Shown piece by piece: positions 42,216 to 62,441 of a stretch of 64,000 bases of DNA (the stretch's first letter is position 1; the number at the start of each line of letters is the position of its first letter). The stretch lies in NCBI GenBank assembly GCA_039024555.1, contig JBCCQQ010000012.1, forward strand, positions 41,347 through 105,346, read 5' to 3'. A program made the position numbers and the translations under genes. The notes under the pieces are model-generated. The model saw only the letters and a list, made by a program, of their open reading frames with translations, had not been told where the DNA came from and ran no database searches. The DNA comes from Cyanobacteria bacterium P01_D01_bin.156. Lineage in GTDB: Bacteria; Cyanobacteriota; Cyanobacteriia; Phormidesmidales; Phormidesmidaceae.

Positions 42216-42357
42216 CGGTGTGTCTGCGACAGAATATATATTTTTCATTGGTTAATTTTTTTATTGAATAAGCACTTCCCCTTCAGAAATAGGAACATAT
42301 TAGACAGATAGTCTCAACTGAAGATACTGCTCCTGTATTCGCTTAAAAAGCTTGACC

Positions 42358-45912: not shown

Positions 45913-46034
45913 GCGACCGGTCTCAACACAACGTGCGGTGCTTTTGATATGTTGGCTTTGGCTGATGCCATCTGCTGTGTCAGCCCTTTTCGTTTCGATT
46001 CTATGTACAGCTCTACTTGTTTGATATCAATTGC
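45913..46034 (-). mobile_element. N-terminal remnant of an IS21-family (IstA) transposase
   Basis: AIDIKQVELYIESKRKGLTQQMASAKANISK/(frameshift)RTARCVETGR resembles the IstA N-terminal HTH (QV.LYM..R..G.TQ..AAAKAGIS.R..RRIE). Confidence 0.6.
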
Positions 46035-47461
46035 TACAGTGGCTTTGATGGAGATTTAGGTACCCTTTTTCTTGAGGACTTTAGGGGCTTTTTAGTTGGT
46101 GAACTGGTTGCTTTAGTTGGTTTCTTGGCTGGATTGGATACTTTTTTTGTTGGAACAGATGCTTGTTTTTTAGGAGAAAGCTGTTTGTCCAATTCACGTC
46201 GTCTATCTGCGTCTTGAGCCACTATTTTTGCTCTGCGGGTGGCTTCTTGTTTTCGGGCATTCTCGAATTCAGAATTTCGTGAGTTGGCAACTATTTTTTG
46301 AGCTTGATTGGAGTTTGCTAGTCGATTCAGGGGAATATAGTCGCTTTTGAAGTTGAGCTCTACTGAAGAGGTTAACTCTACATTAACGTTTTCTTCTTCT
46401 GTGGTGTGCGATCGTTCAGTCGAAACGTAGCCAATCGTATTTTGCAGTTGAGCATCGACCCCCCATGGGCCAACTTTGGCTCCTCCCTTTACAGAAATTT
46501 TATTAGTCATGTCGAATCGGTTACCTTTATCTGCCTGGGCAGCGCTTCGAGCATCAATATGAAATCGCATGGTCGCATTTATTCTGCCGCTCTCAATGAC
46601 AATACGCCGCAGACCCATTTGTACCAGCGTGGCTAGCATTTGCTGCCGGGTTTTGGCTAGGTGACGACGCACAAATGGCAGCAGCGTTTTTTCTGGGTCT
46701 CCGCGCGTGGGTAGTGAACTCTTGTCATCTAAGCCTAATGATGCTTGAAGGGCCTCTTGTGAGGGCATTTTTGCTCCAGAAAGTAAGCGAATTGTAGTGT
46801 TACGACCGGTTGTGTTTTGAGGGGTGTGATCGCCCCAAAAATCATCATTGTCTCGATCTCTGTCCGTCAACTCAAACGAGTCAGGGAAACGTTCAACTAA
46901 CCAAGTTCGAGCCTGACTAGGTGCCATGTTGGTATCGGCAAATCCTTCTGTCGACGCTGCCACATTGTTCAAGAGTTCAATATACATATGCATTTGCTGC
47001 ATATCCGAATCGACTATTGCTTTGAAAACACCATTGATTAGTTCTGCAACAAAGCGAGGAAAAGAAACTGCATTGATAACTCGCCGTGTATTACCGGCGA
47101 GTCGATCGATCGCTTTGCCCCCATGATCATCTGCAGCAGACTGAGCGGTGGCTAGAGGCGGAGATAACTCTATCTCATTTTCTCCAGTAGGAAGGTCTTC
47201 CAGATTCAATGTTTCAGAAGTCTCTTCTAATGCCCTGACAGTATTCTCACTGATCATCTCTTCTAATATCAAGCCCACTGCAGTTTGACAAACATCTACC
47301 ATTTTATGGGCTAAGTTTCGCTGACTTTTTGGATCTAATTCTTGATAGGCTGGTGATTCCAACAGCAAGGCTTTAACACTCTGGCGAACAACTGGAAGAG
47401 GTGTCTTTGTTGTATCATTAGAATGAATTTGATCAGGAGAGACTGTGTTAGGATAGGCCAT
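46034..47461 (-). CDS. Hypothetical protein, operon family-X paralogue D
   Basis: VSFPRFVAELINGVFKAIVDSDMQQM, RQQMLATLVQMGLRRIVIESGRINA, VELNFKSDYIPL; Lys/Pro-rich tail. Confidence 0.9.
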   Translation of the reverse strand: MAYPNTVSPDQIHSNDTTKTPLPVVRQSVKALLLESPAYQELDPKSQRNLAHKMVDVCQTAVGLILEEMISENTVRALEETSETLNLEDLPTGENEIELSPPLATAQSAADDHGGKAIDRLAGNTRRVINAVSFPRFVAELINGVFKAIVDSDMQQMHMYIELLNNVAASTEGFADTNMAPSQARTWLVERFPDSFELTDRDRDNDDFWGDHTPQNTTGRNTTIRLLSGAKMPSQEALQASLGLDDKSSLPTRGDPEKTLLPFVRRHLAKTRQQMLATLVQMGLRRIVIESGRINATMRFHIDARSAAQADKGNRFDMTNKISVKGGAKVGPWGVDAQLQNTIGYVSTERSHTTEEENVNVELTSSVELNFKSDYIPLNRLANSNQAQKIVANSRNSEFENARKQEATRRAKIVAQDADRRRELDKQLSPKKQASVPTKKVSNPAKKPTKATSSPTKKPLKSSRKRVPKSPSKPL

Positions 47462-48420
47462 TAGCGCCCTCCTATAGTGAAAGGCTCATGATTGGTAGGT
47501 GTAGCTGGTATGGATGGCTGAGTAATTTGCAGCCAAGCGATCGCACTAGCGACAACAGCATGATCTACAGGCACCCATTGTGCCAAACTATCCTCTAAAT
47601 GAGGAGAAACCTTTGCTAGCCAAGCCAATAGCTTCATGCCATGACGTCCCCGCTCTACATGCAAATCGATATTGATCACAGTTCCAGACGATTGATCAGT
47701 CGCGATCAATTGCATTGCCCGACGTAAAGCGGTCCAGATAGAGCGGCTACCCAGCGCTCGCTGTAGGTCTGGCTGCTTTAAAATGTACAATACTTGCTGA
47801 ATAGAGCGAAGCAGGGCTTGCGCGGCGAAGGGACCTATGCTGCCTGAGCGACTGATGACGTTGTAAGAAAGCTGCTGGGCCGCAATGCGAATTGGAATGT
47901 CACGACTGGATTGATTGATTGATTTCTGGTCAGATACTGATGTTTGAAGGGCGGTTGCTAGTTGAATGAATAAGGGTTCAAAGTTGAGATTGCGCCCGTT
48001 GGGGGCTGCAAAGGTAGGACCGGCTGAGGTGCCAAACAGTCTAGAAAAAAGTGCTTGACGTTCTATCTGAGTGAATCTCTGGTGGCGTTTTTCCCAAAAC
48101 TTTATGAGTGGAGAGGCGGCTGTTCCCAGATCGGCTCTGATGCCACCACTGATTGCTAGTCCAGCGAATGTTTCTACTGAGGTGAGGAGTTGGATGGCTT
48201 CGAGTTCGGAAGCCAAGTATAGGATTGCGATCGCTTTCAAATGAGCCTGATCTGCCTGAGAGCCCAGGATAGGCGGTAGTTCAATTGTGCCCAGAGAAGG
48301 ATCGCCAAAGGCAAGAGTCGAAAGCTGGGCAGACAGGTGATGAATATCACTCACCAGTTGTTGGCTGGCAGCTAATCCCTGATCCAACTGCTCTAAGCGT
48401 TGTGCCTCCAAAAGATCCAT
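47461..48420 (-). CDS. Hypothetical protein, family-Y paralogue (homologous to the C-terminal half of 52128..54266)
   Basis: LYLASELE..LL..VE...G...F...ERQALFSRLFG aligns with IYFAAILE..LF..VD...G...F...DRRNLYARTLG; ATG 48420 just after upstream stop; TAATG overlap with the next gene. Confidence 0.85.
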   Translation of the reverse strand: MDLLEAQRLEQLDQGLAASQQLVSDIHHLSAQLSTLAFGDPSLGTIELPPILGSQADQAHLKAIAILYLASELEAIQLLTSVETFAGLAISGGIRADLGTAASPLIKFWEKRHQRFTQIERQALFSRLFGTSAGPTFAAPNGRNLNFEPLFIQLATALQTSVSDQKSINQSSRDIPIRIAAQQLSYNVISRSGSIGPFAAQALLRSIQQVLYILKQPDLQRALGSRSIWTALRRAMQLIATDQSSGTVINIDLHVERGRHGMKLLAWLAKVSPHLEDSLAQWVPVDHAVVASAIAWLQITQPSIPATPTNHEPFTIGGR

Positions 48421-48424
48421 CTGC

Positions 48425-49636
48425 CTACGCCTCGTCGACTTTTTTCTTAGGCGGCTGAGCATTTCCTTGAATGGCCGCGATCATCTGGGGGCTGGCCATT
48501 TTTTCCATCGGCATATAGTCGCTCTTGAAGTTGACGCGAACTTCGCCCGTGAGTTTTGCCTTAACCTCTGCTTTGGATGCAGAAGTTTCATCTAAAGAGG
48601 ATTGAACCGTTGCAAGGTGACTTGTTCTAGATGTAACGCTTGCACTGGCTTGAACAGGCGAAAACCAACCGCCAAAGCTAGCGCCAGCCTTAGCTTCAGT
48701 GCCAGATTTTGACCTGTCGTACAGAGAAGCTTTGGACTGACGTCTAGCGATATCTGAGGCACGCATGCCGAAGACAACTTTAGCGTTAATTTGGCCGTCG
48801 GTAACGACAATTCGATTAATGCCTAGCATAACCATTGAGGCGAGTAGCTGCTGTCGGCTGCGGGCAATTTGTAGCCGAGCGGCCAGCACTAAACGACGTT
48901 CTTGGCTTTCTTCAGAAATATCAGTGATGGGTTCCTTAAGATCTAACTCGCTGGAGATGGTTTTGAGGGCCTCTGACTCATCTTCGGCGGTTACTTGTAA
49001 TTTTGGTTTTGCTGCTGTTTGCGTATCAATATCGCCATCGGCAAAGCCGAAGCTGCCCTGCTCAACCTCGACACCTAGCTTGTCGGGAAAGCGTTCTGCT
49101 AACCAATCACGAGCGTTGTTTTCAGTAATATTGTCTTGTGCAAACTGATCAACTGTTTTAGCAACATTGGCAAGGAGTTCTCCATAGGCTTTCATTTGCT
49201 GAATAGAAGAATTCACAATTGCCTGGAAAACGTTTTCAATCAGGCCAGAGACAAAAGCTGGAAAATCTACTTTATTTACCAGTTCTCCAAACTGCTCTGT
49301 TCCCTGGCGAACAGCACCCGCCTCAAAATCTTCGCCCGCAAATCCAGGATCGCTAGCGGCTCGCTTGCGGGCTGTTTCAGTAGCATCGGCCTGGGTTTGA
49401 GATAAAATGCCTCCCTCAGACGACAGTTCTTGAGCTGCCAACCCGTCTGGATTCACCATATATGATGAGACATCGACCATCGACTGTGCTAGCTGCCGCT
49501 GATCATCTGGAGAGAGCTTGGCAAAACCGGGTGAAGCCTGAAGGATTTTTCGCACTTCAGGGCGAACAAGGCTGAGGGTTCCGTCATTTTTCCAGTTCGG
49601 CTGCTCGTTGGTTTGAGAAGATAGAGAAGTATCCAT
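48425..49636 (-). CDS. Hypothetical protein, family-X paralogue C
   Basis: VDFPAFVSGLIENVFQAIVNSSIQQMKAY, RQQLLASMVMLGINRIVVTDGQINAK, GEVRVNFKSDYMPMEKMA. Confidence 0.9.
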   Translation of the reverse strand: MDTSLSSQTNEQPNWKNDGTLSLVRPEVRKILQASPGFAKLSPDDQRQLAQSMVDVSSYMVNPDGLAAQELSSEGGILSQTQADATETARKRAASDPGFAGEDFEAGAVRQGTEQFGELVNKVDFPAFVSGLIENVFQAIVNSSIQQMKAYGELLANVAKTVDQFAQDNITENNARDWLAERFPDKLGVEVEQGSFGFADGDIDTQTAAKPKLQVTAEDESEALKTISSELDLKEPITDISEESQERRLVLAARLQIARSRQQLLASMVMLGINRIVVTDGQINAKVVFGMRASDIARRQSKASLYDRSKSGTEAKAGASFGGWFSPVQASASVTSRTSHLATVQSSLDETSASKAEVKAKLTGEVRVNFKSDYMPMEKMASPQMIAAIQGNAQPPKKKVDEA

Positions 49637-49681
49637 GGTTTCCGTCTTTGTAGCTCAAGTTAATTGATATATTTTTTGGTA

Positions 49682-51049
49682 CTAACTTGTAGGAGACGGA
49701 TTGCTACTATCATTCCCAGATGAAGGCGGTGCCGAAGCACCCCTGGCACCAGATTGTTGTTTGGGGTTAGCTGCATTTTGAATCATGGCAATTTGAAACG
49801 AATCAGCCATTTTTTCTAGCGGTAAAAAATCACTTTTGAAATTTACTTCGACAGTGCCAGCAAGGCTAGCCTTAGTCTGTAAGGCTGCATCCGTACTTTC
49901 CTGGCTGGCGCTCGCCAAGGTTACCACTGGCGACTGAGTATGCTTGTAAGTTCCTTTCGAATAATAGCTTCCATCTCTTTTTTCCTCTTCTACATCTTCA
50001 GATTTTGCACCATCTTTGCTTTTTGATAGGTTAGTTGTTCTTCTCTCTTCTCCGCCCTCTTCCCCATAATCATACTCACCTTCAGAACCGTACATTCTTT
50101 CTAACTGGCCACTCGCATTCCTGGCATAATCGAACTGAGTAGCGCTTCGTCGAAACTTAAGGTTATCTCTAGCCTGGAAATTATACATAACTTTGGCTGA
50201 GATTTTTCCATCGGTTACCACAATTCTATTGATTCCCATAAGTACCATGGTTGCCAGCAATTGCTGACGACTGGTGGCTAGCTGGGTACGTGCTGCTGGA
50301 ACTAGCTTTTTCTCAATGCTTTCATCATCCAGGCTAGAAATCTGGCCACCGTCTACAGGAAGCGTATTGACTCTCTTAAGTGCTTCCGACTCATCAGCAT
50401 CATCTCGCAATCTCACTCTAGGCCCACCATTCTCATCCCCAAAATCGCCTGTGTCAATATCAACCACAAACAGATCGGGGAATTGATCGACTAAGTGATC
50501 CCGTCCCTGGTTAGCTGATACGTTTTCATCCCTGAATTGATCGATCGTTTTGGCGACATCTGCAACTAGCCGACCATAGGCTTCCATCTGCTCGATAGAA
50601 GATTGCACAATGGAGTGAAATACGCCGGAAATAAGACCAGAGACAAAGGTCGGAAAATTTACGCTCTGGAGCAATGCGCCAGCGACAGCAGCGCCTTCTC
50701 GTGCTGCTTGCGCCTGAAACTTTGGGCTGTTTGCTCTTTTTGTCAAATCTTCTCTAACGCCTGTTCTTGTTGGATTGCTAGCAATCTCTGCACGTCTGAG
50801 AGCATCATTCTCCAGTCCAATTGCATAGGGATCTTCTAGCGCCGTCTTCTGGCGCTTGGTCGTCGGTAGCTTATTGCCTCGGATGCCATCAGGTTCTGCC
50901 AGGTATGAAGCAATTTGAACAGTGTGGTTTGCAATTTCTTTTTGTTTGTCGGGGGGTAGAGAACAAAAGGCATCACTCTTTAGTAACAAGTCCTTCACAT
51001 TTTGACGGGCCAGTGATAGGGTTTCTCCACTGGGCTGATTGTTATTCAT
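49682..51049 (-). CDS. Hypothetical protein, family-X paralogue B
   Basis: VNFPTFVSGLISGVFHSIVQSSIEQMEAY, RQQLLATMVLMGINRIVVTDGKISAK, GTVEVNFKSDFLPLEKMA; ATG 51049 overlaps the upstream stop. Confidence 0.9.
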   Translation of the reverse strand: MNNNQPSGETLSLARQNVKDLLLKSDAFCSLPPDKQKEIANHTVQIASYLAEPDGIRGNKLPTTKRQKTALEDPYAIGLENDALRRAEIASNPTRTGVREDLTKRANSPKFQAQAAREGAAVAGALLQSVNFPTFVSGLISGVFHSIVQSSIEQMEAYGRLVADVAKTIDQFRDENVSANQGRDHLVDQFPDLFVVDIDTGDFGDENGGPRVRLRDDADESEALKRVNTLPVDGGQISSLDDESIEKKLVPAARTQLATSRQQLLATMVLMGINRIVVTDGKISAKVMYNFQARDNLKFRRSATQFDYARNASGQLERMYGSEGEYDYGEEGGEERRTTNLSKSKDGAKSEDVEEEKRDGSYYSKGTYKHTQSPVVTLASASQESTDAALQTKASLAGTVEVNFKSDFLPLEKMADSFQIAMIQNAANPKQQSGARGASAPPSSGNDSSNPSPTS

Positions 51050-52094
51050 AAGGGTGTCCTTTTGCCGATAGATTTGCGAGCTGATTTTCACCCAGTGCGA
51101 ATTCGATAGGGCGCAAATATAGGCTGACTTTGGCCGGATTATGCGGAGTGATAATGACGCTCAGCACAGAGAATTGGCCAGGCCAACCGTGGGTGTCGGG
51201 GGTAAAGGCCTGTAGCCAACGCTGTAAGGATTGTAGTTCTCGGGGGCGTTCTGCCAGTCCAAGGGTGAGGAGTTTGAGGAATTCTGGGGGAAAATCGGGA
51301 AGCATACCGAGGGCAACTTCTAGCTTGACTTCTGGATCTTTGAGTGATCCTGCTAAGCCGATGAAGAGTGATCGCGCAGGCAAGCTAAACCGTCCACCCA
51401 AAGAAAGTCCAAATACCTGCATCACAGCAGACATTTGGTGCTCTAGGCCCAAATGAGTCATGAGTGGATTAAGCTCGCTCAGACGCACGGGCTTCCAGTG
51501 CAAAAAGGTCAGCCGCTGCCGACCGCTATTGCGCTGACAAGAGATGGTGGTAAAAATCGGGACGAGATCTGGTAAATATGATTGGGCGGTTCGAGCCAGT
51601 TGCTGCAAAGCCGATGGCAGTGAATTGATTTGGTTTGGATGAATTTCGTAATAAACCTTGGAAGAATGTAGACCATCGCGATCATAGGAGTTGCCAAACC
51701 ATGCACCGTAGGTCAAGGTTGGATTGCCAAATAAACTGCGCCATTCTTCACTGCTTTGATCAAACCAGTGAAGTGCTTCTGGGCCGAATTGAGAATTGAC
51801 CAATCGGCGCATCTCTCGGGTCGATTCGTCTCGCCGGGAAACAGGTAGAACACCAGGGCCAAGTGGCTCAATCACAAAGCGGAGGGTTTTAGGTTCCCTT
51901 GCGGAGAACGAGGGCTCGAAAGGGATAGTTCCTGGTGCAAGCGTATTTTGAGCGTATTTTTGATCACCGACGGGTAGCTGAAATGAGCGATCTAGCAATC
52001 CCCCCACATATGGTAAAGGGTTACTGGCTCCAATGGTTTCAGCAGCCTGCTGAACCCGATACTTAATGGCATTGGCAGCAGCTTGTATAGACAT
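51042..52094 (-). CDS. Hypothetical protein, probable ABBA-fold / DMATS-like prenyltransferase homologue
   Basis: IPFEPSFS..PKTLRFVIEPLG, WFG...KVYYE, KVSLYLRP resemble the DMATS motifs P.E.S...LR...EP and K.Y; 350 aa; GAGGAG RBS. Confidence 0.5.
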   Translation of the reverse strand: MSIQAAANAIKYRVQQAAETIGASNPLPYVGGLLDRSFQLPVGDQKYAQNTLAPGTIPFEPSFSAREPKTLRFVIEPLGPGVLPVSRRDESTREMRRLVNSQFGPEALHWFDQSSEEWRSLFGNPTLTYGAWFGNSYDRDGLHSSKVYYEIHPNQINSLPSALQQLARTAQSYLPDLVPIFTTISCQRNSGRQRLTFLHWKPVRLSELNPLMTHLGLEHQMSAVMQVFGLSLGGRFSLPARSLFIGLAGSLKDPEVKLEVALGMLPDFPPEFLKLLTLGLAERPRELQSLQRWLQAFTPDTHGWPGQFSVLSVIITPHNPAKVSLYLRPIEFALGENQLANLSAKGHPYE

Positions 52095-52127
52095 AGTTTA
52101 TCTCCTCGGTAATTGCCTCCTGTTCAT

Positions 52128-54266: not shown

Positions 54267-54284
54267 ATGATTTCTATTTCCTGG

Positions 54285-55736: not shown

Positions 55737-56506
55737 ATGTCACCTCCACTGTTAGTGACAATTTCTGGCATCCCAACATCAATCACGTCGGCAGAGGCCC
55801 AGTCAAAGTTGGTTTCTGCTACCATGCCAGGTGCTGTTTCCACCTGTAAAGCGCCGCTCATATGTGAGCCTGGATAATCCACCACAAGCTCCTTAGTTGT
55901 AGACTCCAAAATCTGAACATTTTCACCATTGATTCGCACTGTTGGTGGCTGTTTTTCTTGAGCTAGGTTAAAGCCTCGAATGCGCATACGGGACGTTCCT
56001 TCTGGCAATACCTGCTTCACCTGTGGCTGAGAAGCCCGTTTTAAGGCTGCTCGCAGCCGCATTGCTGGAATTTGAGAGATTTGTTCTACCACATTCTCAT
56101 TTTTCTGCTGTTGCAATTCGCGTAGCTGAGACACGCTATGAATGCCTGCCCATTCCAATCGACGCTGTTCTTCTTCCGTAATGTCATCTCCTAATACTTC
56201 TTTCAGCGAAGGTTCATCGGCTTCTGCTGTAAATGTATTTTCCTCAATCATCGGACGGGTGATAGTTGTGAAATCAAAATGCAGCACGCTGGTTTCTTTC
56301 GCATTTGGGCCTGCTGGACGAATGAGGATCTGGCTTTTGGCCATATCGACATGAGCGCGTAAATCAATCGAGAGTTCCTTGAGGGCAAAGGTCAAAGGCA
56401 GGCCAAACTGAGCCTTGAGAGACATACTTTTCTGCGCCCGGTCTAACTGACTGGTCAAGGCTTGAATGAAGTCTTCTAGGGGTAGTCCTTCCTCGTAATT
56501 GCTCAT
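55733..56506 (-). CDS. Hypothetical protein: Trypco2-like N-domain + HhH-like motif + IPT/TIG-like Ig domain
   Basis: LPLEDFIQALTSQLDRAQ...FALKELSIDLR; RRLEWAGIHSVSQL; PQVKQV...IRGFNL...PTVRING...G.LQVET. Confidence 0.7.
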   Translation of the reverse strand: MSNYEEGLPLEDFIQALTSQLDRAQKSMSLKAQFGLPLTFALKELSIDLRAHVDMAKSQILIRPAGPNAKETSVLHFDFTTITRPMIEENTFTAEADEPSLKEVLGDDITEEEQRRLEWAGIHSVSQLRELQQQKNENVVEQISQIPAMRLRAALKRASQPQVKQVLPEGTSRMRIRGFNLAQEKQPPTVRINGENVQILESTTKELVVDYPGSHMSGALQVETAPGMVAETNFDWASADVIDVGMPEIVTNSGGDI

Positions 56507-56745
56507 GTCTGATCTCCTAAATAAAGATTTATTTTTAATCGACTAGGTCGCTCTTCAAACCCTGTTTTTATCTCCCAGCGGGGTAGGTCGGCCAATAGTC
56601 GAAAGCCCACTTGCGTCATTTCTGCTCTGACTTCGATAGGAATATTGATAACGGCATTTGTTACCCGCAGCTCAGGGTGATCGTGCTCAATCGCATTAAC
56701 CGATTCCATCAGCTCTACCAGGGTTTCCCATAATTCTCGACGCAT
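56503..56745 (-). CDS. Small hypothetical protein (80 aa; helix + beta-strands)
   Basis: Starts 3 nt after the upstream stop; ATGA overlap downstream; GGAGG upstream. Confidence 0.8.
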   Translation of the reverse strand: MRRELWETLVELMESVNAIEHDHPELRVTNAVINIPIEVRAEMTQVGFRLLADLPRWEIKTGFEERPSRLKINLYLGDQT

Positions 56746-56748
56746 GCC

Positions 56749-58032
56749 TTAAGAACCTCCAGATTCAGCAGATGGGGACGGTACAGCAGAAGACGGTGCA
56801 GGCAGCGCAGTTGCTGGTGGGGAAGGCGTCTGTTGTGAATTAGCAGGTGGTGAGTTAGCAGGTGGTGAGCTAGTGGATAATGTGCGTGCATTACTTTGCA
56901 GAAGTGCTAGCTGTGCGGCATCTGCAAAGCTTTCTAACGGCAGGGTTTCACTAGCAAAATTAATTTTGACTTCCCCATATAGATCGGCCTTAATCACCGC
57001 ATCAGATTGAACATTAGCCTCAACCGTCGATACTTTCATGATCGACTGATAAGGATTACGGCCTCGCATTCCCCAAGAGTTTGAGCCAGTTGCTGTGCCC
57101 GGATCTTGTGAAACGGCATACTCAACGGCGGCTTTATCTCTTGCAGCTGCTCGAAACTTTAACTTGGCAGAAATAGAACCATCTCGAACAACAATCCGGT
57201 TCATCCCCATCAGTACCATGGTGGCCAAGGTCTGAAGTCGGTTCGAGCCATATTTACGCCGAGCCGCTGGAATGAGTTGCTCTTCAATCAAAGTTTGCGT
57301 AAAGTCTTCATCTGCTAAACCGTAATCCGCTAGCCAGCTAGGAGAAACATCGTCGCCGTCTTCATTGACGGTGTGCATCGGTCGTAAGCGCGGTTGCCCG
57401 CCGGAAAAATCTAGCTGTAAGTCTCTCGGATAAAGCTCTACTAGCCAGTCGCGAACTTGGTTGGGAGTGACGTTTTCGTCGGTAAATTGATTGACGTCTT
57501 TTGCGACTGCACTGACCAGTCCGGCAAAGGCTTCCATTTGCCGAATAGATGATTCAACAATGGCATCGAAAGTGCCATGCACCAGATTGGCAACAAATGT
57601 AGAAAAATCGAGTTCGTCTAAGACTGCACCTGCTGCGGTTGCAATCTTTTCGGTTGCTGTTTTCTTGGGTTGAGTTGGTGCAATCTCGCTATTTTCTTTG
57701 TTGATAGGCTGCTGGGTGCCTAATCTCTGGCGAGCTAAACCACGGCGACGAGCTAAATCATTGGGCGTTTCCATTGCCATAGCGTAGGGATCGCTTGCAG
57801 GTGGTGAGGGTTTAGCTTGCAGTGTAGGCTGAGCGGTTAATCCAAAGGCATAAGGATCAACTGCTGCTGGCTCAGGGGATTGCTGTAGAGCCTGTTGAAT
57901 AGAATCAAGATCGCGCTTTAGGGTCAGCTGTTGTTCAGGAGGCAGTGATTGAAAGGCAGGCGCTTGCTCTAGTCGCGATGCGACCTGATTTGTTAAATTC
58001 TGGGCGGCTATAATCTCTGAGGATCCGTTCAT
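56749..58032 (-). CDS. Hypothetical protein, family-X paralogue A
   Basis: LDFSTFVANLVHGTFDAIVESSIRQMEAF, RLQTLATMVLMGMNRIVVRDGSISAK, GEVKINFASETLPLE. Confidence 0.9.
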   Translation of the reverse strand: MNGSSEIIAAQNLTNQVASRLEQAPAFQSLPPEQQLTLKRDLDSIQQALQQSPEPAAVDPYAFGLTAQPTLQAKPSPPASDPYAMAMETPNDLARRRGLARQRLGTQQPINKENSEIAPTQPKKTATEKIATAAGAVLDELDFSTFVANLVHGTFDAIVESSIRQMEAFAGLVSAVAKDVNQFTDENVTPNQVRDWLVELYPRDLQLDFSGGQPRLRPMHTVNEDGDDVSPSWLADYGLADEDFTQTLIEEQLIPAARRKYGSNRLQTLATMVLMGMNRIVVRDGSISAKLKFRAAARDKAAVEYAVSQDPGTATGSNSWGMRGRNPYQSIMKVSTVEANVQSDAVIKADLYGEVKINFASETLPLESFADAAQLALLQSNARTLSTSSPPANSPPANSQQTPSPPATALPAPSSAVPSPSAESGGS

Positions 58033-58051
58033 TGTTTATCTCTAACGCTTC

Positions 58052-59293
58052 CTATTTCAGACGGTAAACAATGTCTGTAAAGCGATCTGAATGGCGAAGT
58101 CGTTCCAATCGCTGTTTTGCGGCTCCTGATGATGAAGCTAGTAATCGATCCATCATTTCGTTTTGGCTGATGAATACGGCACCCAGTTCTCGTAAGTTAC
58201 CAACTAAGGCGGCATGGGTAGTGGGATTGAATTGACCGTTTTGGTCAGCTTTGGGTATCCAGCTAATGGTTTGTTGAAAAGAAAGTAGGTCTTTGAATCC
58301 TAGCAGCTGTAATGCGTTTTCTCGTTGCATTTGTGTACGAAGTGGACCTGCTGACTGAAGTATCCACCGTAGGCCACCTCCCAATCCTTGTATGACGACG
58401 CGGTCAAAGACCATAGCAAGGGCACGATCGCTTACCAAACCAAGATTGTGAGCAATCGGTAACATCGGCCGAAACAAGTACTCAATGGCGGTTTCGTTTT
58501 GTGCCGCCTGAAAGGTAGGAATCGCTCCTGATTTTTGAAATCGCGCTATCCATTCATCGCTCCAGAGAACATTACCACCTATAGGCTTTAATCGTGCTTC
58601 TTCAGTACTAGCGGTTGTCACTGCTAAAAGTTCAGAGGTTTGGGGGCCAAAGAGCTGAGAAAACTGATCGGTATCTCTACGCTGCATGACGGTCAATAGC
58701 TGACCTAATAATCCAGAGGCTTGCGTAAAAAGAACCAGGCCAAAGCCTAAGCCGAATTGACGCTGCTGGGCAGGCTGGTTATGTATCAGGGATTCAAGGT
58801 TGGCCGATACAGCTGTGTAGGGCGTCTCTCCTGAATCAGCGACCGCGACTTCTCGAATGATTTGATACATCTCCTGAAAGTCTAACGGAATAGCTTCTGG
58901 AGACTGAGAAGGTATCGACGGTAAGTCAGGCTCAGACCCTATCAGCATCGTATAGTCAGATAATTTAAGTGATACGTTTTCTATTTTCTCTGCTGCTGGC
59001 TGTTCTGGGGCGTTTTCTTTCCCAACTGTGTGAGCTGTGGCAAGTTCTGAAATAGGTACAGTAACCGGGATTACAGACTGAATCACGTCAGGTGGTGGGG
59101 CTGATAGCTGAAACCTAATCTTTTCATTCTGTTGATTATCGCTATCTGTGCTGCCAGGTAATTTCTCTGTAGATAGGGATTGCGATCTCACAACAACCTC
59201 TACTGGCTGCGTGATATCAGGCGGCGGCGGCGACAGCTGTGGCTTTGCTAAACCATTATTTGAATTCAAGGCTGGGCTGGCATGCATAGCCAT
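58052..59293 (-). CDS. Lysozyme-like fold protein with Pro-rich N-terminal repeats and possible peptidoglycan-binding segment
   Basis: VAVADSG..Y.AV...FGLGFGLVLFTQASG.LG.LL...F...Q...RALAMVFDR..QG.GG; LLSFQ...DQNGQFNPTT; ATG 59293 after GGAG. Confidence 0.55.
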   Translation of the reverse strand: MAMHASPALNSNNGLAKPQLSPPPPDITQPVEVVVRSQSLSTEKLPGSTDSDNQQNEKIRFQLSAPPPDVIQSVIPVTVPISELATAHTVGKENAPEQPAAEKIENVSLKLSDYTMLIGSEPDLPSIPSQSPEAIPLDFQEMYQIIREVAVADSGETPYTAVSANLESLIHNQPAQQRQFGLGFGLVLFTQASGLLGQLLTVMQRRDTDQFSQLFGPQTSELLAVTTASTEEARLKPIGGNVLWSDEWIARFQKSGAIPTFQAAQNETAIEYLFRPMLPIAHNLGLVSDRALAMVFDRVVIQGLGGGLRWILQSAGPLRTQMQRENALQLLGFKDLLSFQQTISWIPKADQNGQFNPTTHAALVGNLRELGAVFISQNEMMDRLLASSSGAAKQRLERLRHSDRFTDIVYRLK

Positions 59294-59327
59294 TACTCCA
59301 TCAAAATGAAATCTATCAAAATCGAAA

Positions 59328-62300
59328 TTACGGCTGTGTCCACCGATAGGAAATGTTGTGCATTCCATTACCGAATAAGACCAGGTCGGTTATAGCAATT
59401 CTGTCGTCGTAAATCACATTGGTGAAACGATAGTGGAACCGAACTTTGATCGCTGCAAAGCCTTCCGAAACAGCGTTCTCTTTAGATTTTTCTTGGTAGA
59501 CATTGGCATCATTCATAATGCTAGCCTCTACGTTTAGTCCAGCACCTACAGCATCGTTGGCCTTAGTAATTGAAATAGAAACATTGCCTAAAGACCTTCC
59601 ATTATATTGGAAGCTAAGCTCACTATCGACATAAATCTCATCTAGGCCACCAACAGTTCCCAGTCGTGGACCTTTGACTGTTATGATTTGCTCTTTATAG
59701 GAGGCCGATCCAGCATTTTTCTTCTGGTCAGCAGGGTATTTTATCCCCTTGAGCTGTGAAAGTTTCCAGGTTATATCTCCTTTGTTATCAAGGATGCGTG
59801 TTATCACTGCCCCAGCGATTGCTGACGTCACGCCCTCAAGGGCCTGTTGGCTATGACTATAGTGATTGCTGCTATCTTCACGGCCCCCGGCATGGAGGAC
59901 TTGAATATTGACGCTGTTAATAGCGGTTGCCTGTTCGTATTGTTGGATAAAGTTCTGGAAAGGCAAGTCGTATGTACTGCCTTGCCCTACTGGCCAAGGA
60001 TCAAGAACGCGTACATGTGTTCCTTTGATTGTGCCGTCACCATACAAGCCTGCCATGACTACTACGTGTAGGGAGGGAGTCGCTTCACCGATCCAAAGCG
60101 GTCCATTTTGCTCTAGCATTTGGCGTAGTTCACTGATGGCGTAGGAACGAGGGGTTTCGACGACTAGCTTCCAGCTGCTCGCCAAGGTGGGGACATCTTT
60201 GGGATTAAGTCCATTTTGGTAGGTAGCCCAAGGGCCTTGTCCCATCACGATGTCTTTGGCTGAAATTGAGAGGCGATCGCGCCAGCCTACTATCATGGCG
60301 GCGGCGGCGGCCCAACAAGACATTGCTGTTGGCTGCGGCAGTAGCGATACATCTTGCCAGGTCACGTCAAAGCTTTGCCCAGAGAGCATTGGAACATAGC
60401 TCTGCATGCCGTTGGTACTTACACTTGGCTGCGTGGTCGAGCGGAGATAGCATGTTCCGCTAATCACCATGCCCATGTAATAGTCCCAATCCCAAACGGC
60501 ATTTGGGCAGTCTTTGTGAGTTGTGCTAGAATCCGCTTCTACGTGGCCCAAAATATGTTGACGATCTAATGGGATGCCATAGGTGTCGGCCAGCCACCTC
60601 ACCAAAGCTGCCGAGGCACAATATTGCGCTTCCGTCGGAGGCGAGTCCGTAGTGTTTGCAATATGTTCTATACCAATACTGTCGCGATTCGCGCGATTCG
60701 CATGCCAGGCTTTATCTTTGTGCTTCACCATTTGCACAACTTCGCCATCCCTGCCAATTACATAGTGAGCACTGACCTTGGTTGTGTCTTTCTTTTGAAG
60801 CCAGCGAACCATTCCGTTTGTTGTTGCTTTCGCGCTGCTATCTGTAATGTGAATAACAATTCTGTTAATTTGTCTGTCAGTTTTTGGAGTGTATTTATCT
60901 GGATGTGCTGGTGCAAAGCGACTAGCCTGAGGATACTCTGGTTCAACAAAAGCCATGCTGTAGCTTTGCTCTTCGCTAACAACAGGAATATCTCCTACTG
61001 TTAGAATCGGCCCTTCAAACCCACGATCATCTCCTTCCTCCACAATTCCTTGCACACTAGATAAAGTGCTAGAGTTGTTGGCATAGACATAATGAGTATA
61101 AGCATCATCTGCGATTAGATGTCCTACATACTTTAATCCCCGCTTCAGGGCTACTCTGGCAATATCTCCGGCGTCACTGCGCTCTGGCAAACCATAAGTT
61201 ATTGCAATACCCGCATGATGATAAGCTGCTAAAACCAGTTCTGAGCAAATAAATGTCTTATCGGACGGGCCAAGCGTCAGGTCTGATGTACTGGGGGACA
61301 GTATTCCTGCCACTAAAGCTGTCCAACCTCCATATTCTTTTCCAACTTGCTGCTGTGCAAACGCTACAGCTTTTTGGACCTGCTGGTTTGTTATATCTGG
61401 AATCCGATAAGCAACCGCAAGTGAGGCATCTTTAAGCGCTTCAGCTAAAGTTCGTTGGACTACACCAGCTTGGCTGTAGGCTTCTACGATGTTCCCATTC
61501 CCAATATATAAAATTGCGTGGCTCACTGCTGAGCCTGTCACAAAGCGAATGCCGGTCGCTGTCCAGCTCTGTGTAGTGGTTAGAATAAGATCGCCAGCGA
61601 TAAGAGATTGCTGATCGATGGAACGACCGCCTTTACCTGGATCGAGCGGAATTTGGAGTACCTTTAGGGGTGGCTCTGGTTCTGGAGAAAGTGTTTTTCT
61701 TGAAGGTAGCTCTTTAGATGGTATTTCCTCTGGAATTGGCTCATTATAGGGGTCACCTGCATCTGAATCTATTAAACCATCGGCATCTTGCGCGCTGTAC
61801 CACAAAGAATCATCATAGCCATCGTCATAGACAAAGGCTCTCACAGACTGACTTTCTGTTGCTGGCTGAATAGAGCTATCTGGTTCATCTGATGAAGAAA
61901 CAATAGTTGGTTTCTCATTTATAATTCTCTCTATTTCTCCTGGCTCTGCAATGTCACCACCCCATTCCAACGAAGTGCGATCGCCATTCTCCGCATAGCT
62001 CTTTCCATTATTCACCGAACCCATTCGCCGATTCGGTATTTCCATCAGCCGTCGATTATTACCAGAAAAAGTATTAGAGATCCGAATATACGGCATTGCT
62101 TTCGGATCAATACGCACCACCTCTGGATTGCTAAAATTAGGCTGTGAATAAACGGCCAATGCATAGTAAAGCCGAGACTGCCCCACAAACCTTGCCATCG
62201 CAGTAGGCGGAATCAGGTAAACCGCTTCTCCCTTTTCCGCAGGCAACAACCCTACAGCACGGCTCGAATAGAAATTTGAAGAAGTACGTCTTGACTTAGC

Positions 62301-62441
62301 ATCCGTCCCAAAAAACAGAGTTGGATCGCTCGCGACAGCGACTTCTATCCAAGCAGGACTGATCCCAGTGCGGATGGTAAATCCCATAACTGGAAATTGT
62401 CGACTCACTTCCTGACGATTGGCCTGAATCAACGCTGGCAT
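59328..62441 (-). CDS. Multidomain hydrolase: unknown N-domain + permuted papain-like C92 (YiiX/YebB) + N-acetylmuramoyl-L-alanine amidase (Amidase_2) + AvrRpt2/C39-like cysteine protease + unknown C-domain
   Basis: GDLILTT...SHAILY...FICSELV; IVIHIT...SAHYVI...AWHA...SIGIEH...ILGH...DCP; QPTAMSCWAAAAAM...HVVV...VLDPWP; GAGGA RBS; no signal peptide. Confidence 0.9.
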   Translation of the reverse strand: MPALIQANRQEVSRQFPVMGFTIRTGISPAWIEVAVASDPTLFFGTDAKSRRTSSNFYSSRAVGLLPAEKGEAVYLIPPTAMARFVGQSRLYYALAVYSQPNFSNPEVVRIDPKAMPYIRISNTFSGNNRRLMEIPNRRMGSVNNGKSYAENGDRTSLEWGGDIAEPGEIERIINEKPTIVSSSDEPDSSIQPATESQSVRAFVYDDGYDDSLWYSAQDADGLIDSDAGDPYNEPIPEEIPSKELPSRKTLSPEPEPPLKVLQIPLDPGKGGRSIDQQSLIAGDLILTTTQSWTATGIRFVTGSAVSHAILYIGNGNIVEAYSQAGVVQRTLAEALKDASLAVAYRIPDITNQQVQKAVAFAQQQVGKEYGGWTALVAGILSPSTSDLTLGPSDKTFICSELVLAAYHHAGIAITYGLPERSDAGDIARVALKRGLKYVGHLIADDAYTHYVYANNSSTLSSVQGIVEEGDDRGFEGPILTVGDIPVVSEEQSYSMAFVEPEYPQASRFAPAHPDKYTPKTDRQINRIVIHITDSSAKATTNGMVRWLQKKDTTKVSAHYVIGRDGEVVQMVKHKDKAWHANRANRDSIGIEHIANTTDSPPTEAQYCASAALVRWLADTYGIPLDRQHILGHVEADSSTTHKDCPNAVWDWDYYMGMVISGTCYLRSTTQPSVSTNGMQSYVPMLSGQSFDVTWQDVSLLPQPTAMSCWAAAAAMIVGWRDRLSISAKDIVMGQGPWATYQNGLNPKDVPTLASSWKLVVETPRSYAISELRQMLEQNGPLWIGEATPSLHVVVMAGLYGDGTIKGTHVRVLDPWPVGQGSTYDLPFQNFIQQYEQATAINSVNIQVLHAGGREDSSNHYSHSQQALEGVTSAIAGAVITRILDNKGDITWKLSQLKGIKYPADQKKNAGSASYKEQIITVKGPRLGTVGGLDEIYVDSELSFQYNGRSLGNVSISITKANDAVGAGLNVEASIMNDANVYQEKSKENAVSEGFAAIKVRFHYRFTNVIYDDRIAITDLVLFGNGMHNISYRWTQP

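What the first reader, a model, noticed from the sequence alone, without database searches (positions are those of the whole stretch)
46034..62441. Candidate undescribed system: 12-gene operon of paralogous putative structural proteins with a maturation protease, prenyltransferase-like enzyme and cell-wall hydrolases
Seen: 12 co-oriented genes with overlaps or short gaps (TAATG at 47461, ATGA at 55733 and 56503, 8-nt overlap at 51042). Order: multi-hydrolase, lysozyme-like, X-A, 80 aa, Trypco2/IPT-like, S8, Y-long, prenyltransferase-like, X-B, X-C, Y-short, X-D. None has a signal peptide. I recognise no sheath, tube, baseplate, capsid, gas-vesicle or Reb motifs. Inference: four X and two Y paralogues, a dedicated cytoplasmic protease and peptidoglycan hydrolases suggest a protease-matured hetero-oligomeric assembly (pore, tube or filament) that carries wall-degrading cargo or is released by lysis. 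It could be an antibacterial weapon or a programmed-death/defence module.
Basis: partly seen in the sequence, partly recalled or inferred. Interest (0 to 1): 0.92.

Follow-up and report, generated by a model that had tools for sequence, protein, structure and literature searches.

The report
Widespread uncharacterised protease–hydrolase gene cassette
A tightly packed block of twelve genes in this cyanobacterium is one copy of a rigidly conserved, horizontally spread cassette found in many bacterial phyla, most of whose proteins belong to no described family; it probably builds a protease-controlled membrane- and wall-breaching device.

Summary
The 12 co-oriented minus-strand genes at 46034-62441 are real, with the stated overlaps. 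Ten have no hit in Pfam, NCBIfam, PADLOC or PHROGs. Eleven of them form a cassette kept in the same order and orientation in 80 of 80 related loci. By record title these come from about a dozen phyla. Of 57 loci with enough flanking DNA, 55 are complete.

Gene order: modular leaderless murein hydrolase/protease, XA, 80-aa protein, Trypco2-like protein, S8 protease, Y-long, DMATS-like protein, XB, XC, Y-short, XD. The second gene (g02) is not core (5 of 80 loci).

The cassette is very patchy: 1 distant match in 400 other genomes of the phylum. Yet XC is 49-68% identical across phyla, which points to horizontal spread.

The Trypco2-like gene overlaps the S8 gene by 4 nt in 61 of 61 loci, and the S8 catalytic residues are invariant. 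The X proteins carry conserved amphipathic beta-strands. No protein has a membrane helix or a signal peptide.

Best reading (about 0.35): a protease-licensed pore plus wall hydrolase that lyses the producer, for defence or for release. No known apparatus matched. I found no description in print. High interest; mechanism unproven.

The parts
59328..62441 (-). g01 'E': 1037-aa leaderless modular hydrolase/protease = conserved N-domain + C92/NlpC-like + Amidase_2 + Peptidase_C70 + conserved C-terminal domain (CTD)
   Evidence: Pfam: Amidase_2 2.8e-32, Peptidase_C70 5.3e-30, Peptidase_C92 6.4e-10. PHROGs endolysin/amidase families. The N-domain and C70+CTD are conserved in the upstream genes of relatives.
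61815..62441 (-). E N-terminal domain (aa 1-209), no known family
   Evidence: 32-42% identical to the N-termini of the 1069-1562 aa upstream proteins of four relatives (BLASTP) and found by tblastn in 5 of 5 upstream regions.
59334..59834 (-). E C-terminal domain (aa 870-1036), beta-rich by sequence, no known family
   Evidence: The part of g01 most often conserved next to XA. Three tandem copies in L030, L031 and L036. 41-sequence alignment A10. HMM E 1e-46 to 1e-76 in 4 relatives.
58052..59368 (-). g02: 438-aa protein, accessory and not core
   Evidence: tblastn hit in only 5 of 80 loci. No Pfam hit at E<=0.01. No similarity to g01.
56749..58032 (-). XA, first of four X paralogues
   Evidence: Alignment A1. 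Same position in related loci.
56503..56745 (-). g04: 80-aa protein, translationally coupled to g05 (ATGA)
   Evidence: A 70-116 aa ORF fills this gap in 51 of 60 loci. Alignment A7. A homologue sits next to the g05 homologue in the variant cluster L086 (HMM E 5.6e-7).
55733..56506 (-). g05: 257-aa protein with a Trypco2/Pepco-like N-domain (about aa 1-90), a helical linker and an IPT/TIG-like C-domain
   Evidence: 12 of 43 orthologues hit Pfam Trypco2 (best 1.7e-4) and 3 of 43 hit TIG. The Trypco2 HMM's best genome-wide hit is the g05 orthologue in 3 of 4 relatives, at 13-18 bits against a cut-off of 24.2. The window's own protein has no hit.
54285..55736 (-). g06: S8 subtilase with a conserved 175-aa N-terminal region
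   Evidence: Pfam Peptidase_S8 4.5e-37, aa 178-441. D185, H236, N341 and S402 are invariant in 45 sequences. 4-nt overlap with g05 in 61 of 61 loci.
52128..54266 (-). Y-long (712 aa); its C-terminal half is homologous to Y-short
   Evidence: Alignment A3. No Pfam family in the window protein, and only one stray hit among 43 orthologues.
51042..52094 (-). g08: 350-aa protein with partial DMATS-type (ABBA) aromatic prenyltransferase likeness
   Evidence: 12 of 43 orthologues hit Pfam Trp_DMAT (best 1.4e-4). Trp_DMAT's only genome-wide hit in 4 of 5 genomes is this gene: model positions 56-129 of 357, 12-19 bits against a cut-off of 25, no hit in 14 control genomes. Protein-atlas neighbours carry Trp_DMAT, PTase_Orf2 or DUF5838 at 0.93-0.94.
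49682..51091 (-). XB (likely start at the ATG at 51049)
48425..49636 (-). XC, the most conserved component
   Evidence: 49-68% identity across the 80 loci. 2071 homologues at E<=1e-3. 2025 clusters at E<=1e-3 among 1.84 billion representatives.
48524..48790 (-). XC aa 283-371: two conserved amphipathic beta-strands flanking a variable Ser/Thr-rich stretch
   Evidence: AF2 model strands 286-299, 310-320, 329-339 and 350-363, at low confidence. Column-wise hydrophobic/charged alternation over 47 orthologues.
47461..48462 (-). Y-short (333 aa), all-alpha
   Evidence: AF2 pLDDT 90.2, pTM 0.87, twelve helices.
46034..47461 (-). XD, with a Lys/Pro/Ser/Thr-rich disordered tail
   Evidence: translation. 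Tails of 72-368 aa in 55 of 56 orthologues measured (one outlier, 1226 aa, is likely an ORF-calling artefact), mostly P/A/G/S/T/Q-rich. Fused to a small methyltransferase in 4 of 80 loci.

Best explanation
The region is one copy of a horizontally transferred, self-contained 11-gene cassette (plus one accessory gene here). All of its products are made in the cytoplasm without membrane helices or signal peptides. Together they most likely form a protease-licensed device that breaches the cell membrane and degrades the cell wall. Proposed sequence; every step from 2 onward is inferred. (1) The cassette is expressed as one operon, shown only by the tight or overlapping junctions. In proteobacterial and actinobacterial relatives a dedicated SARP-type activator sits upstream. 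(2) The four X paralogues and two Y paralogues form a latent soluble hetero-complex. The active S8 protease (g06) is held with its translationally coupled partners: the Trypco2-like protein g05 and the 80-aa protein g04. (3) On a trigger, S8 cuts g05 at the end of its Trypco2-like domain, near the nearly invariant Ile82 in FTTITRPMIEEN, which is followed by an acidic tail. It may also cut the X proteins. (4) The beta-hairpin proteins then insert as a charged-lumen beta-barrel pore. The DMATS-like protein g08 may add a prenyl group that helps soluble proteins bind the membrane. (5) The leaderless E protein, with its conserved docking ends and variable amidase, NlpC-type and C70 or trypsin domains, reaches the peptidoglycan and the producer cell lyses. 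The purpose is either altruistic death on infection or stress, or release of cell contents or enzymes against competitors.
For: A real, selected unit: 80 of 80 related loci are colinear and co-oriented, and 55 of 57 loci with enough flank carry all nine tblastn-detectable core genes. The 80-aa ORF is present in 51 of 60 loci. Flanks downstream of XD are unrelated from locus to locus. Horizontal spread: 1 distant match in 400 other genomes of the phylum, against 49-68% XC identity across phyla. Protease-effector pair: g05 and S8 overlap by 4 nt in 61 of 61 loci. The S8 residues D185, H236, N341 and S402 are invariant in 45 sequences. g05 orthologues hit Trypco2 (12 of 43), and the Trypco2 model's best genome-wide hit is the g05 orthologue in 3 of 4 relatives. 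Trypco1/2 ('Pepco') are reported to be protease-activated beta-barrel pore toxins with an N-terminal amphipathic helix, cut after a conserved Ile before a charged tail (Evans et al. bioRxiv 10.1101/2025.11.14.688446: passages, section 8 read). The partnership outlasts rearrangement: a distant variant cluster (L086) again holds S8, Y-like, X-like, g04-like and g05-like genes, in another order. Pore-like features of X: long predicted beta-hairpins and strict hydrophobic/charged alternation in two conserved strands across 47 orthologues. Wall hydrolase without an export signal: Amidase_2, C92 and C70 over cut-off, no hydrophobic N-terminus, and the same conserved-ends/variable-middle design in 5 of 5 relatives examined.
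Against: The Trypco2 likeness is below Pfam's cut-off (13-18 bits against 24.2) and covers only model positions 1-41 of 78. It is absent for the window's own g05. g05 is 257 aa, not about 117 aa. Six of the eleven core proteins (X and Y) have no assigned role: nothing shows they assemble, form pores or are cut. XC's very high conservation is unusual for components of an arms race. There is no NTPase, nuclease or recognisable sensor. Neighbouring genes are mostly housekeeping: of 24 loci whose flanking ORFs were called, two stood out with defence-type neighbours (GmrSD/HEPN in L016, TPR-CHAT in L058). The window copy itself sits next to a caspase-like gene. A SARP activator upstream in 4 of 5 relatives suggests induced production rather than constant surveillance. 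A plain endolysin would not need conserved N- and C-terminal domains and an ever-present C70 protease. No expression or protein data exist.
Confidence: 0.35

Rival explanations
1. An antibacterial delivery or release system. The X and Y proteins build a particle, channel or carrier. The E protein is its diversifying cargo, with conserved ends for loading and interchangeable wall-degrading or proteolytic domains in the middle. S8 and g05 serve maturation or exit, and the target is another cell.
For: E has a variable enzymatic middle between conserved N- and C-domains, with combinations of C92, one or two Amidase_2, one or two C70, Trypsin_2, or three CTD repeats. This pattern is typical of antagonistic effectors (established knowledge of polymorphic toxins). 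A dedicated transcriptional activator lies upstream in 4 of 5 relatives, as for induced bacteriocins. X tails are long and disordered, and one X homologue (P0199) continues into a C92-like fragment.
Against: No immunity-like gene lies between E and XA. The cassette has no ATPase, no membrane or outer-membrane component and no signal peptide, so there is no visible way out of an intact cell. No sheath, tube, baseplate or secretion-system family was hit in Pfam, NCBIfam or PHROGs.
Confidence: 0.22
2. A dedicated anti-phage abortive-infection system, in which the X/Y complex is the sensor for a phage cue and S8 with the Trypco2-like protein is the death effector. This overlaps the best explanation but commits to phage defence as the purpose.
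For: Known Pepco-protease pairs are effector modules of Avs and other defence sensors. Distribution is sporadic with cross-phylum transfer. The window copy lies beside a caspase-like C14 protein and a WD40 protein.
Against: Only the subtilase hit PADLOC. The sampled flanking genes show no consistent defence-island context. XC is strongly conserved. The cassette is large and has no NTPase. SARP control in relatives.
Confidence: 0.15
3. A biosynthetic or protein-modifying pathway. The S8 protease and the DMATS-like prenyltransferase process and prenylate a peptide or protein, as in cyanobactin maturation, under SARP control. X and Y would be scaffolds, carriers or substrates.
For: S8 matches the PatA/PatG cyanobactin protease model at 89.7 bits, cut-off 421. 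DMATS-like signal in g08. SARP regulators classically control secondary-metabolite clusters (established knowledge; AfsR match). The variant cluster L086 lies next to an NRPS-type module and an MFS transporter.
Against: No precursor-like hypervariable peptide: g04 is conserved. The variant cluster has no detectable g08 homologue. Wall hydrolases and a Trypco2-like protein have no place in such a pathway. Both enzyme matches are far below the family cut-offs.
Confidence: 0.08
4. A divergent form of an already known apparatus (extracellular contractile injection system, type VI or VII secretion, R-body, gas vesicle, encapsulin) that sequence and fold searches failed to recognise.
For: S8 gives its best NCBIfam score to the type VII mycosin model (169.5 bits). 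The XC model is of low confidence (pLDDT 65), so its fold was only weakly tested.
Against: The mycosin score is below the cut-off of 278.75. None of the other eleven proteins hit any component family of these systems in Pfam, NCBIfam or PHROGs. No ATPase or membrane component is present.
Confidence: 0.03

Closest known systems
Pepco (Trypco1/Trypco2)-protease effector modules of prokaryotic conflict systems (Kaur et al. 2020, PMC7159879; Evans et al. 2025, bioRxiv 10.1101/2025.11.14.688446)
   Same: A small non-enzymatic protein is encoded immediately upstream of, and coupled to, a serine protease. It has an N-terminal amphipathic helix followed by beta-strands, and a conserved Ile followed by a charged tail. 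Orthologues give sub-threshold Trypco2 matches.
   Different: The protease is S8, not a trypsin or caspase fused to a STAND/Avs or vWA-MoxR sensor. g05 is 257 aa with an extra linker and an IPT/TIG-like domain. The match covers half of the model and is below the cut-off. The pair sits inside a fixed 11-gene cassette with two unknown protein families, a DMATS-like protein and a murein hydrolase.
Phage holin-endolysin lysis cassettes and lysis-dependent release (type 10 secretion); comparison from established knowledge
   Same: A leaderless multi-domain murein hydrolase (Amidase_2 plus an NlpC/CHAP-type domain; PHROGs endolysin families) is encoded with proteins that could open the membrane.
   Different: No holin-like membrane protein: no membrane helix in any product. 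The hydrolase carries conserved N- and C-domains and a C70 protease. There are no phage genes.
Bacterial gasdermin-protease and EACC1-protease pore systems
   Same: The logic of a soluble latent pore former licensed by a neighbouring protease (passages).
   Different: No sequence relation was found. X proteins are 400-475 aa with a large helical part and come as four paralogues.
Polymorphic toxin / effector loci of secretion systems
   Same: The variable enzymatic domains of E lie beside conserved 'apparatus' genes.
   Different: In E both ends are conserved and the middle varies. No immunity gene and no secretion ATPase or membrane channel were seen.
Cyanobactin maturation enzymes (PatA/PatG S8 proteases, PatF-type ABBA prenyltransferases)
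   Same: An S8 protease co-occurs with an ABBA-prenyltransferase-like protein.
   Different: Scores are far below the family cut-offs. No precursor peptide and no heterocyclase or oxidase.

Membership tests
Pepco / Trypco2 (PF19631) | Match to the family model over its curated cut-off (24.2 bits) | tested here: not met
   The window's g05 has no hit. Orthologues score 13-18 bits over model positions 1-41 of 78. 12 of 43 orthologues match at E<=0.01, best 1.7e-4.
Pepco / Trypco2 (PF19631) | Encoded directly beside a serine or cysteine protease | tested here: met
   4-nt overlap with the S8 gene in 61 of 61 loci and in the window.
Pepco / Trypco2 (PF19631) | Small stand-alone protein of about 117 aa | tested here: not met
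   g05 is 257 aa. Orthologues run from 253 aa (median 277; the longest ORF calls, up to 571 aa, are probably over-extended) and carry a linker and an IPT/TIG-like domain.
Pepco / Trypco2 (PF19631) | Conserved Ile at the cleavage site, followed by a charged tail | tested here: inconclusive
   I82 is nearly invariant in FTTITRPMIEEN and an acidic stretch follows. No cleavage data.
Pepco / Trypco2 (PF19631) | Detergent-resistant 9-11-mer beta-barrel that becomes toxic after cleavage | not testable with these tools
   Needs protein work.
Peptidase S8 (subtilase) | Pfam match over cut-off and an Asp-His-Ser triad | tested here: met
   128.4 bits against 21.8. D185, H236, N341 and S402 invariant in 45 sequences.
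Type VII secretion mycosin (TIGR03921) | Score over the equivalog cut-off (278.75 bits) | tested here: not met
   169.5 bits. No C-terminal membrane anchor.
IetAS defence system (IetS/IteS) | Full-length match to IetS and a partner ATPase IetA | tested here: not met
   Only 13-23 bits over about 45 residues. No ATPase in the cassette.
DMATS-type ABBA aromatic prenyltransferase (PF11991) | Match over the cut-off (25 bits) along the whole barrel | tested here: not met
   12-19 bits, model positions 56-129 of 357 only. 12 of 43 orthologues at E<=0.01.
DMATS-type ABBA aromatic prenyltransferase (PF11991) | ABBA barrel fold and diphosphate-binding Arg/Lys/Tyr residues | tested here: inconclusive
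   E60, R72, Y148, R194, Y326 and R328 are invariant and K146 nearly invariant. Their equivalence to catalytic residues of known enzymes is recalled, not aligned here. No structure was predicted. Atlas neighbours are prenyltransferase clusters.
Murein hydrolase domains of g01 (Amidase_2, Peptidase_C92, Peptidase_C70) | Pfam matches over cut-off | tested here: met
   112.2, 39.8 and 104.6 bits against cut-offs of 26, 27 and 19.
Contractile injection systems / T6SS / phage tails | Sheath, tube, baseplate or spike families | tested here: not met
   No such family at E<=0.01 in Pfam, NCBIfam or PHROGs for any of the 12 proteins. At the fold level this is only inconclusive.
Holin-endolysin lysis cassette | A small membrane protein (holin) with transmembrane helices | tested here: not met
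   Highest 19-residue hydropathy is 1.55 in all 12 proteins.
Known anti-phage systems (PADLOC-DB 2.0) | Component models matching several genes of the locus | tested here: not met
   Only the S8 gene matched (PDLC03014 at 4e-20, weak IetS).
DUF2589 (PF11655), an atlas lead for X | Match to the family model | tested here: not met
   No match at E<=1 in the window's genome or in 4 relatives. The atlas score was only 0.78-0.79.

The most novel reading that the evidence does not exclude
The cassette encodes a new kind of envelope-breaching machine. The four X and two Y proteins, soluble until licensed by the S8 protease and perhaps lipid-anchored by a DMATS-like protein prenyltransferase, assemble with the Trypco2-like proteins into a hetero-oligomeric beta-barrel complex. 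This complex carries or releases the modular E hydrolase across the membrane. In effect it would be a previously unrecognised, ATPase-free, leaderless protein export or lysis apparatus shared by a dozen phyla, built from two protein families with no detected relative.
Probability: 0.15. Interest if true: 0.95.

Novelty: categorically new. Interest (0 to 1): 0.8.

Why it matters
Two abundant protein families have no name, no solved relative and no assigned role. X has 2025 clusters at 50% identity among 1.84 billion representatives, and Y travels with it. Both move between phyla as a fixed 15-kb unit together with an active protease, a pore-toxin-like protein, a prenyltransferase-like protein and a shuffled wall hydrolase. 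Whatever it does (programmed lysis, defence, or a weapon), it would add a new multi-protein machine to bacterial cell biology. It would extend the newly found protease-licensed pore toxins to a far more complex setting. If the DMATS-like protein acts on proteins, it would be a rare case of bacterial protein prenylation. The cassette is compact enough for direct heterologous testing.

Tried and rejected
1. Fold searches.
- XC model (pLDDT 65.4): Foldseek against PDB gave no match at E<=0.001. The best was E 0.053, to FliF ring and anthrax-type pore hairpins at TM 0.1. VIA-align wide gave a best Z of 5.3.
- Y-short model (pLDDT 90.2): Foldseek best E 0.38. VIA-align best Z 7.3 (EgtB), followed by many DinB-like four-helix bundles at Z 5-7. 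That is within the noise quoted for helical proteins, and Y-short has no invariant His. I draw no fold assignment, and this does not show the folds are new.

2. Profile searches of PDB sequences with X (A1, A2), Y-long (A3), g08 (A4), g05 (A6), the CTD (A10) and g02: nothing below E 0.25.

3. Complex prediction on XB plus XC with alignments: no verdict (ipSAE 0.05 and 0.01). This is not evidence either way.

4. g04 as a short paralogue of the g05 N-domain: profile-profile probability 0.8%, E 0.073. 1 of 43 orthologues hit Trypco2 at E 0.023. Not supported.

5. Search for stand-alone short relatives of g05: only fragments of g05 orthologues, none carrying PF19631.

6. DUF2589 and DUF5838 leads from the atlas: no genome hits.

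7. Sequencing runs: no RNA holder listed. The one DNA holder may be the source sample.

8. Promoter and terminator scan: counts at or near shuffle expectation, so uninformative.

9. Earlier findings of this scan: none.

10. Literature: six full-text searches found nothing describing this cassette or the X and Y families.


Full report
**Observation.** Searches show twelve consecutive ORFs on the minus strand from 62441 down to 46034. Gaps run from -50 to +45 nt. Shine-Dalgarno-like GGAG/GAGG motifs precede several starts. The window is G000:C12:41347-105346 and ends at the contig end, so only about 1.5 kb upstream of the first gene can be seen.

**What the libraries recognise.** Only two of the twelve proteins match curated families at E<=0.01.
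- g01 carries Peptidase_C92/NlpC-like (aa 282-413), Amidase_2 (522-647) and Peptidase_C70 (694-835).
- g06 is an S8 subtilase (aa 178-441).
- NCBIfam adds only sub-cut-off protease models for g06: mycosin at 169.5 against 278.75 bits, and PatA/PatG at 89.7 against 421.
- PADLOC matches only the subtilase.
- PHROGs matches only endolysin/amidase families for g01 and protease families for g06.
- The four X proteins, both Y proteins, g02, g04, g05 and g08 have no hit.

The paralogy is real. X proteins are 27-34% identical to XA, with a shared helical core and a shared C-terminal NFKSD-type motif. Y-short corresponds to the C-terminal half of Y-long (profile-profile probability 99.9%, E 3.5e-34).

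**Conservation elsewhere.**
- XC has 2071 homologues at E<=1e-3 among 8000 scored candidates. The best 120 are 56-100% identical, and every one that a source names is called hypothetical.
- A profile search of 1.84 billion cluster representatives found 2025 clusters at E<=1e-3 and 543 at E<=1e-30.
- In the one-genome-per-species collection, 371 stretches encode a relative, and the best 80 loci were fetched.
- By record title these come from Cyanobacteria, Acidobacteriota, Chloroflexota, Actinomycetota (including Cellulomonas), Alpha-, Beta- and Gammaproteobacteria, Myxococcota, Planctomycetota, Gemmatimonadota, Armatimonadota, Desulfobacterota, Bacteroidota and one MAG labelled Deferribacteres. 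MAG labels are as deposited.
- tblastn with the twelve window proteins shows the same order and orientation in 80 of 80 loci. All nine readily detectable core genes are present in 59 of 80 loci, and in 55 of the 57 loci with at least 8.3 kb upstream and 2.8 kb downstream of XC.
- The two exceptions are L032 (Cupriavidus necator A5-1), which has only the g08-to-XD half with split hits, and L085, where Y-short is not detected at 1e-5.
- The 80-aa gene, too short for tblastn in most loci (25 of 80), is present as an ORF in 51 of 60 loci.
- g02 occurs in 5 of 80 loci and is not core.
- Genes downstream of XD differ from locus to locus (peptidases, sigma-54, DNA polymerase chi and others), so the cassette ends at XD.
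- Median identity to the window ranges from 34% (Y-short, g04) to 56% (XC).
- Within the window's own phylum the cassette is rare. Of 400 other genomes sampled, one has a match, at 28% identity.
- High cross-phylum identity with such patchiness indicates horizontal transfer.

**A rearranged variant.** The single phylum match (L086) is a different cluster: S8 (34% identical), a 182-aa protein, a Y-like protein split as 431 + 130 aa (HMM E 7e-21 and 2.5e-8), an X-like protein (4e-42), proteins of 684 and 447 aa, a g04-like protein (5.6e-7), a g05-like protein (8.8e-22), and proteins of 381 and 608 aa. My HMMs detect no g08 or CTD homologue, and Pfam recognises only the S8. So S8, X, Y, g04 and g05 stay together even when the order changes. 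That is the strongest sign that they act together.

**The first gene (E).** The parts of g01 conserved next to XA are C70 plus a 165-aa C-terminal domain. Upstream proteins in other loci combine C70 (once or twice), C92, Amidase_2 or Trypsin_2. In three loci there are three tandem CTD repeats without a recognised enzyme domain. I fetched full upstream regions for five relatives. In the four where the ORF could be called cleanly, the proteins are 1069-1562 aa. All five share with g01 a conserved N-terminal domain of about 200 aa (33-42% identity), a variable middle, then C70 and the CTD. E is therefore an eleventh core component with conserved ends and a shuffled enzymatic middle. It has no export signal.

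**The protease pair.** g05 ends inside the S8 start codon region (ATGA) in the window and in 61 of 61 loci. The S8 residues D185, H236, N341 and S402 are invariant in 45 sequences, and the 175-aa N-terminal region is also conserved.

The window's g05 gives no Pfam hit. However, 12 of 43 orthologues match Trypco2 (best 1.7e-4) and 3 of 43 match IPT/TIG. When the Trypco2 model is run over whole genomes, its best hit is the g05 orthologue in 3 of 4 relatives. That hit reaches only 13-18 bits (cut-off 24.2) and covers model positions 1-41 of 78.

Trypco1/2 were defined as neighbours of trypsin-like peptidases in conflict systems (Kaur et al. 2020, PMC7159879; two passages seen). They were renamed Pepco by Evans et al. 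(bioRxiv 10.1101/2025.11.14.688446; passages, section 8 read). That preprint reports a 117-aa protein that forms 9-11-mer beta-barrels. It has a basal amphipathic helix and is made toxic by protease cleavage after a conserved Ile, ahead of a charged tail. g05 has an N-terminal amphipathic helix, then strands, then the nearly invariant FTTITRPMIEEN, then an acidic stretch. This fits that pattern but is not proof.

**g08.** 12 of 43 orthologues match Trp_DMAT (best 1.4e-4). The model's only genome-wide hit in 4 of 5 genomes is this gene, with none in 14 control genomes. The hit reaches only 12-19 bits over model positions 56-129 of 357 (window residues about 50-115). Protein-atlas neighbours are prenyltransferase clusters at 0.93-0.94. 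Invariant Glu, Arg and Tyr residues (E60, R72, Y148, R194, Y326, R328) and a nearly invariant Lys (K146) resemble the catalytic Glu and the diphosphate-binding residues of DMATS enzymes. That correspondence is recalled, not aligned here.

**X and Y.** The AF2 model of XC has moderate to low confidence (pLDDT 65.4). It shows a helical N-terminal two-thirds and four long strands at 286-363. Across 47 orthologues the two conserved strands alternate strictly between hydrophobic and charged columns (I283 to A293; A356 to K371). They flank a variable, Ser/Thr-rich stretch. This is the pattern of a barrel wall with one apolar and one charged face.

XA, XB and XD end in low-complexity tails. XD tails measured 72-368 aa in 55 of 56 orthologues, and in 4 of 80 loci the tail leads into a small methyltransferase. 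That domain is closest to PDB entries named RNA, L11 or protein-lysine methyltransferase (E 1e-36 to 3.5e-29).

Y-short folds confidently (pLDDT 90.2, pTM 0.87) as twelve helices. The fold and PDB searches are reported under Tried and rejected. They gave no assignment.

**Context.** In 4 of 5 relatives a SARP-type activator lies upstream of E (AfsR, E 3e-12). In 3 of 5 a conserved protein of about 100 aa lies between the activator and E. Neither is in the visible part of the window. Next to the window copy are a caspase-like C14/DUF4384 protein and a WD40-repeat protein that runs off the contig (read by eye).

**Mechanism.**
- Shown: a conserved, transferred operon; an intact protease coupled to a Trypco2-like gene; leaderless wall hydrolase domains; no membrane or export signals; amphipathic strands in X.
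- Inferred: that S8 cuts g05 and/or X; that these form a pore; that E then reaches the wall; that g08 lipidates a component; and that the outcome is lysis of the producer.

I rate this protease-licensed breach-and-lyse model at 0.35. The rivals are a delivery or antagonism device (0.22), a committed anti-phage abortive-infection system (0.15), a modification or biosynthetic pathway (0.08) and an unrecognised known apparatus (0.03). The remainder is left open.

**Novelty.** The embedded protease-plus-Trypco2-like pair is a known kind of module. The cassette as a whole, the X and Y families (six of eleven core genes), the E end domains and g04 match nothing in the four family libraries or among PDB sequences. 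Six full-text searches found no description. The bioRxiv supplements of Evans et al., which list Pepco neighbourhoods, were closed and could bear on this.

Noticed in passing
window 42352-44640 (+): A 762-aa protein with a caspase-type Peptidase_C14 domain (9.7e-20) and DUF4384, convergent on the end of the cassette. It is a conflict-system-like neighbour but is not conserved with the cassette elsewhere.
   Followed up: partly
window 62798-64000 (-): A WD40-repeat protein (repeats read by eye in the translation) lies upstream of g01 on the same strand and runs off the contig end. Its N-terminal part, possibly an NTPase, is not visible.
   Followed up: no
L087 7734-8627 and 8663-9100; L089, L090 and L091 equivalents: In relatives a SARP-type regulator lies upstream of the E gene (AfsR E 3e-12; 27-55% identical among the four relatives). 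In 3 of 5 a conserved protein of about 100 aa (motif FIVRIW...WRGSIEHVQSGE) lies between the regulator and E.
   Followed up: partly
L032, L033, L063, L068 (XD ORFs); proteins P0194, P0221, P0218: XD orthologues are fused through their Lys/Pro-rich tail to a small class I methyltransferase closest to PDB entries named RNA, L11 or protein-lysine methyltransferase. This hints that the lysine-rich tail is methylated.
   Followed up: partly
proteins P0212 and P0199: One XD-like homologue (805 aa) ends in a domain with a clear hydrophobic membrane segment. Another X homologue continues into a C92/NlpC-like fragment that resembles the g01 motif FICSELV. Either could be an assembly artefact (read by eye).
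   Followed up: no
L086 (G396:C101:101500-121400): A variant cluster with single X-like, Y-like, g04-like, g05-like and S8 genes plus five unknown proteins. It lies directly downstream of an NRPS-type module (Condensation, AMP-binding, PilZ, PP-binding) and an MFS transporter.
   Followed up: partly
L030, L031, L036, positions about 180-1900: In these loci the protein upstream of XA consists of three tandem copies of the CTD and has no recognised enzymatic domain.
   Followed up: no
L032 (Cupriavidus necator A5-1): A truncated cassette: only g08, XB, XC, Y-short and XD, with XC and Y-short hits split in two. This suggests decay.
   Followed up: no
L016 13996-15921; L058 14213-17495: Immediately downstream of XD, two loci carry defence-type genes: GmrSD plus RiboL-PSP HEPN in L016, and TPR plus CHAT protease in L058. 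Most other sampled loci have housekeeping neighbours.
   Followed up: no
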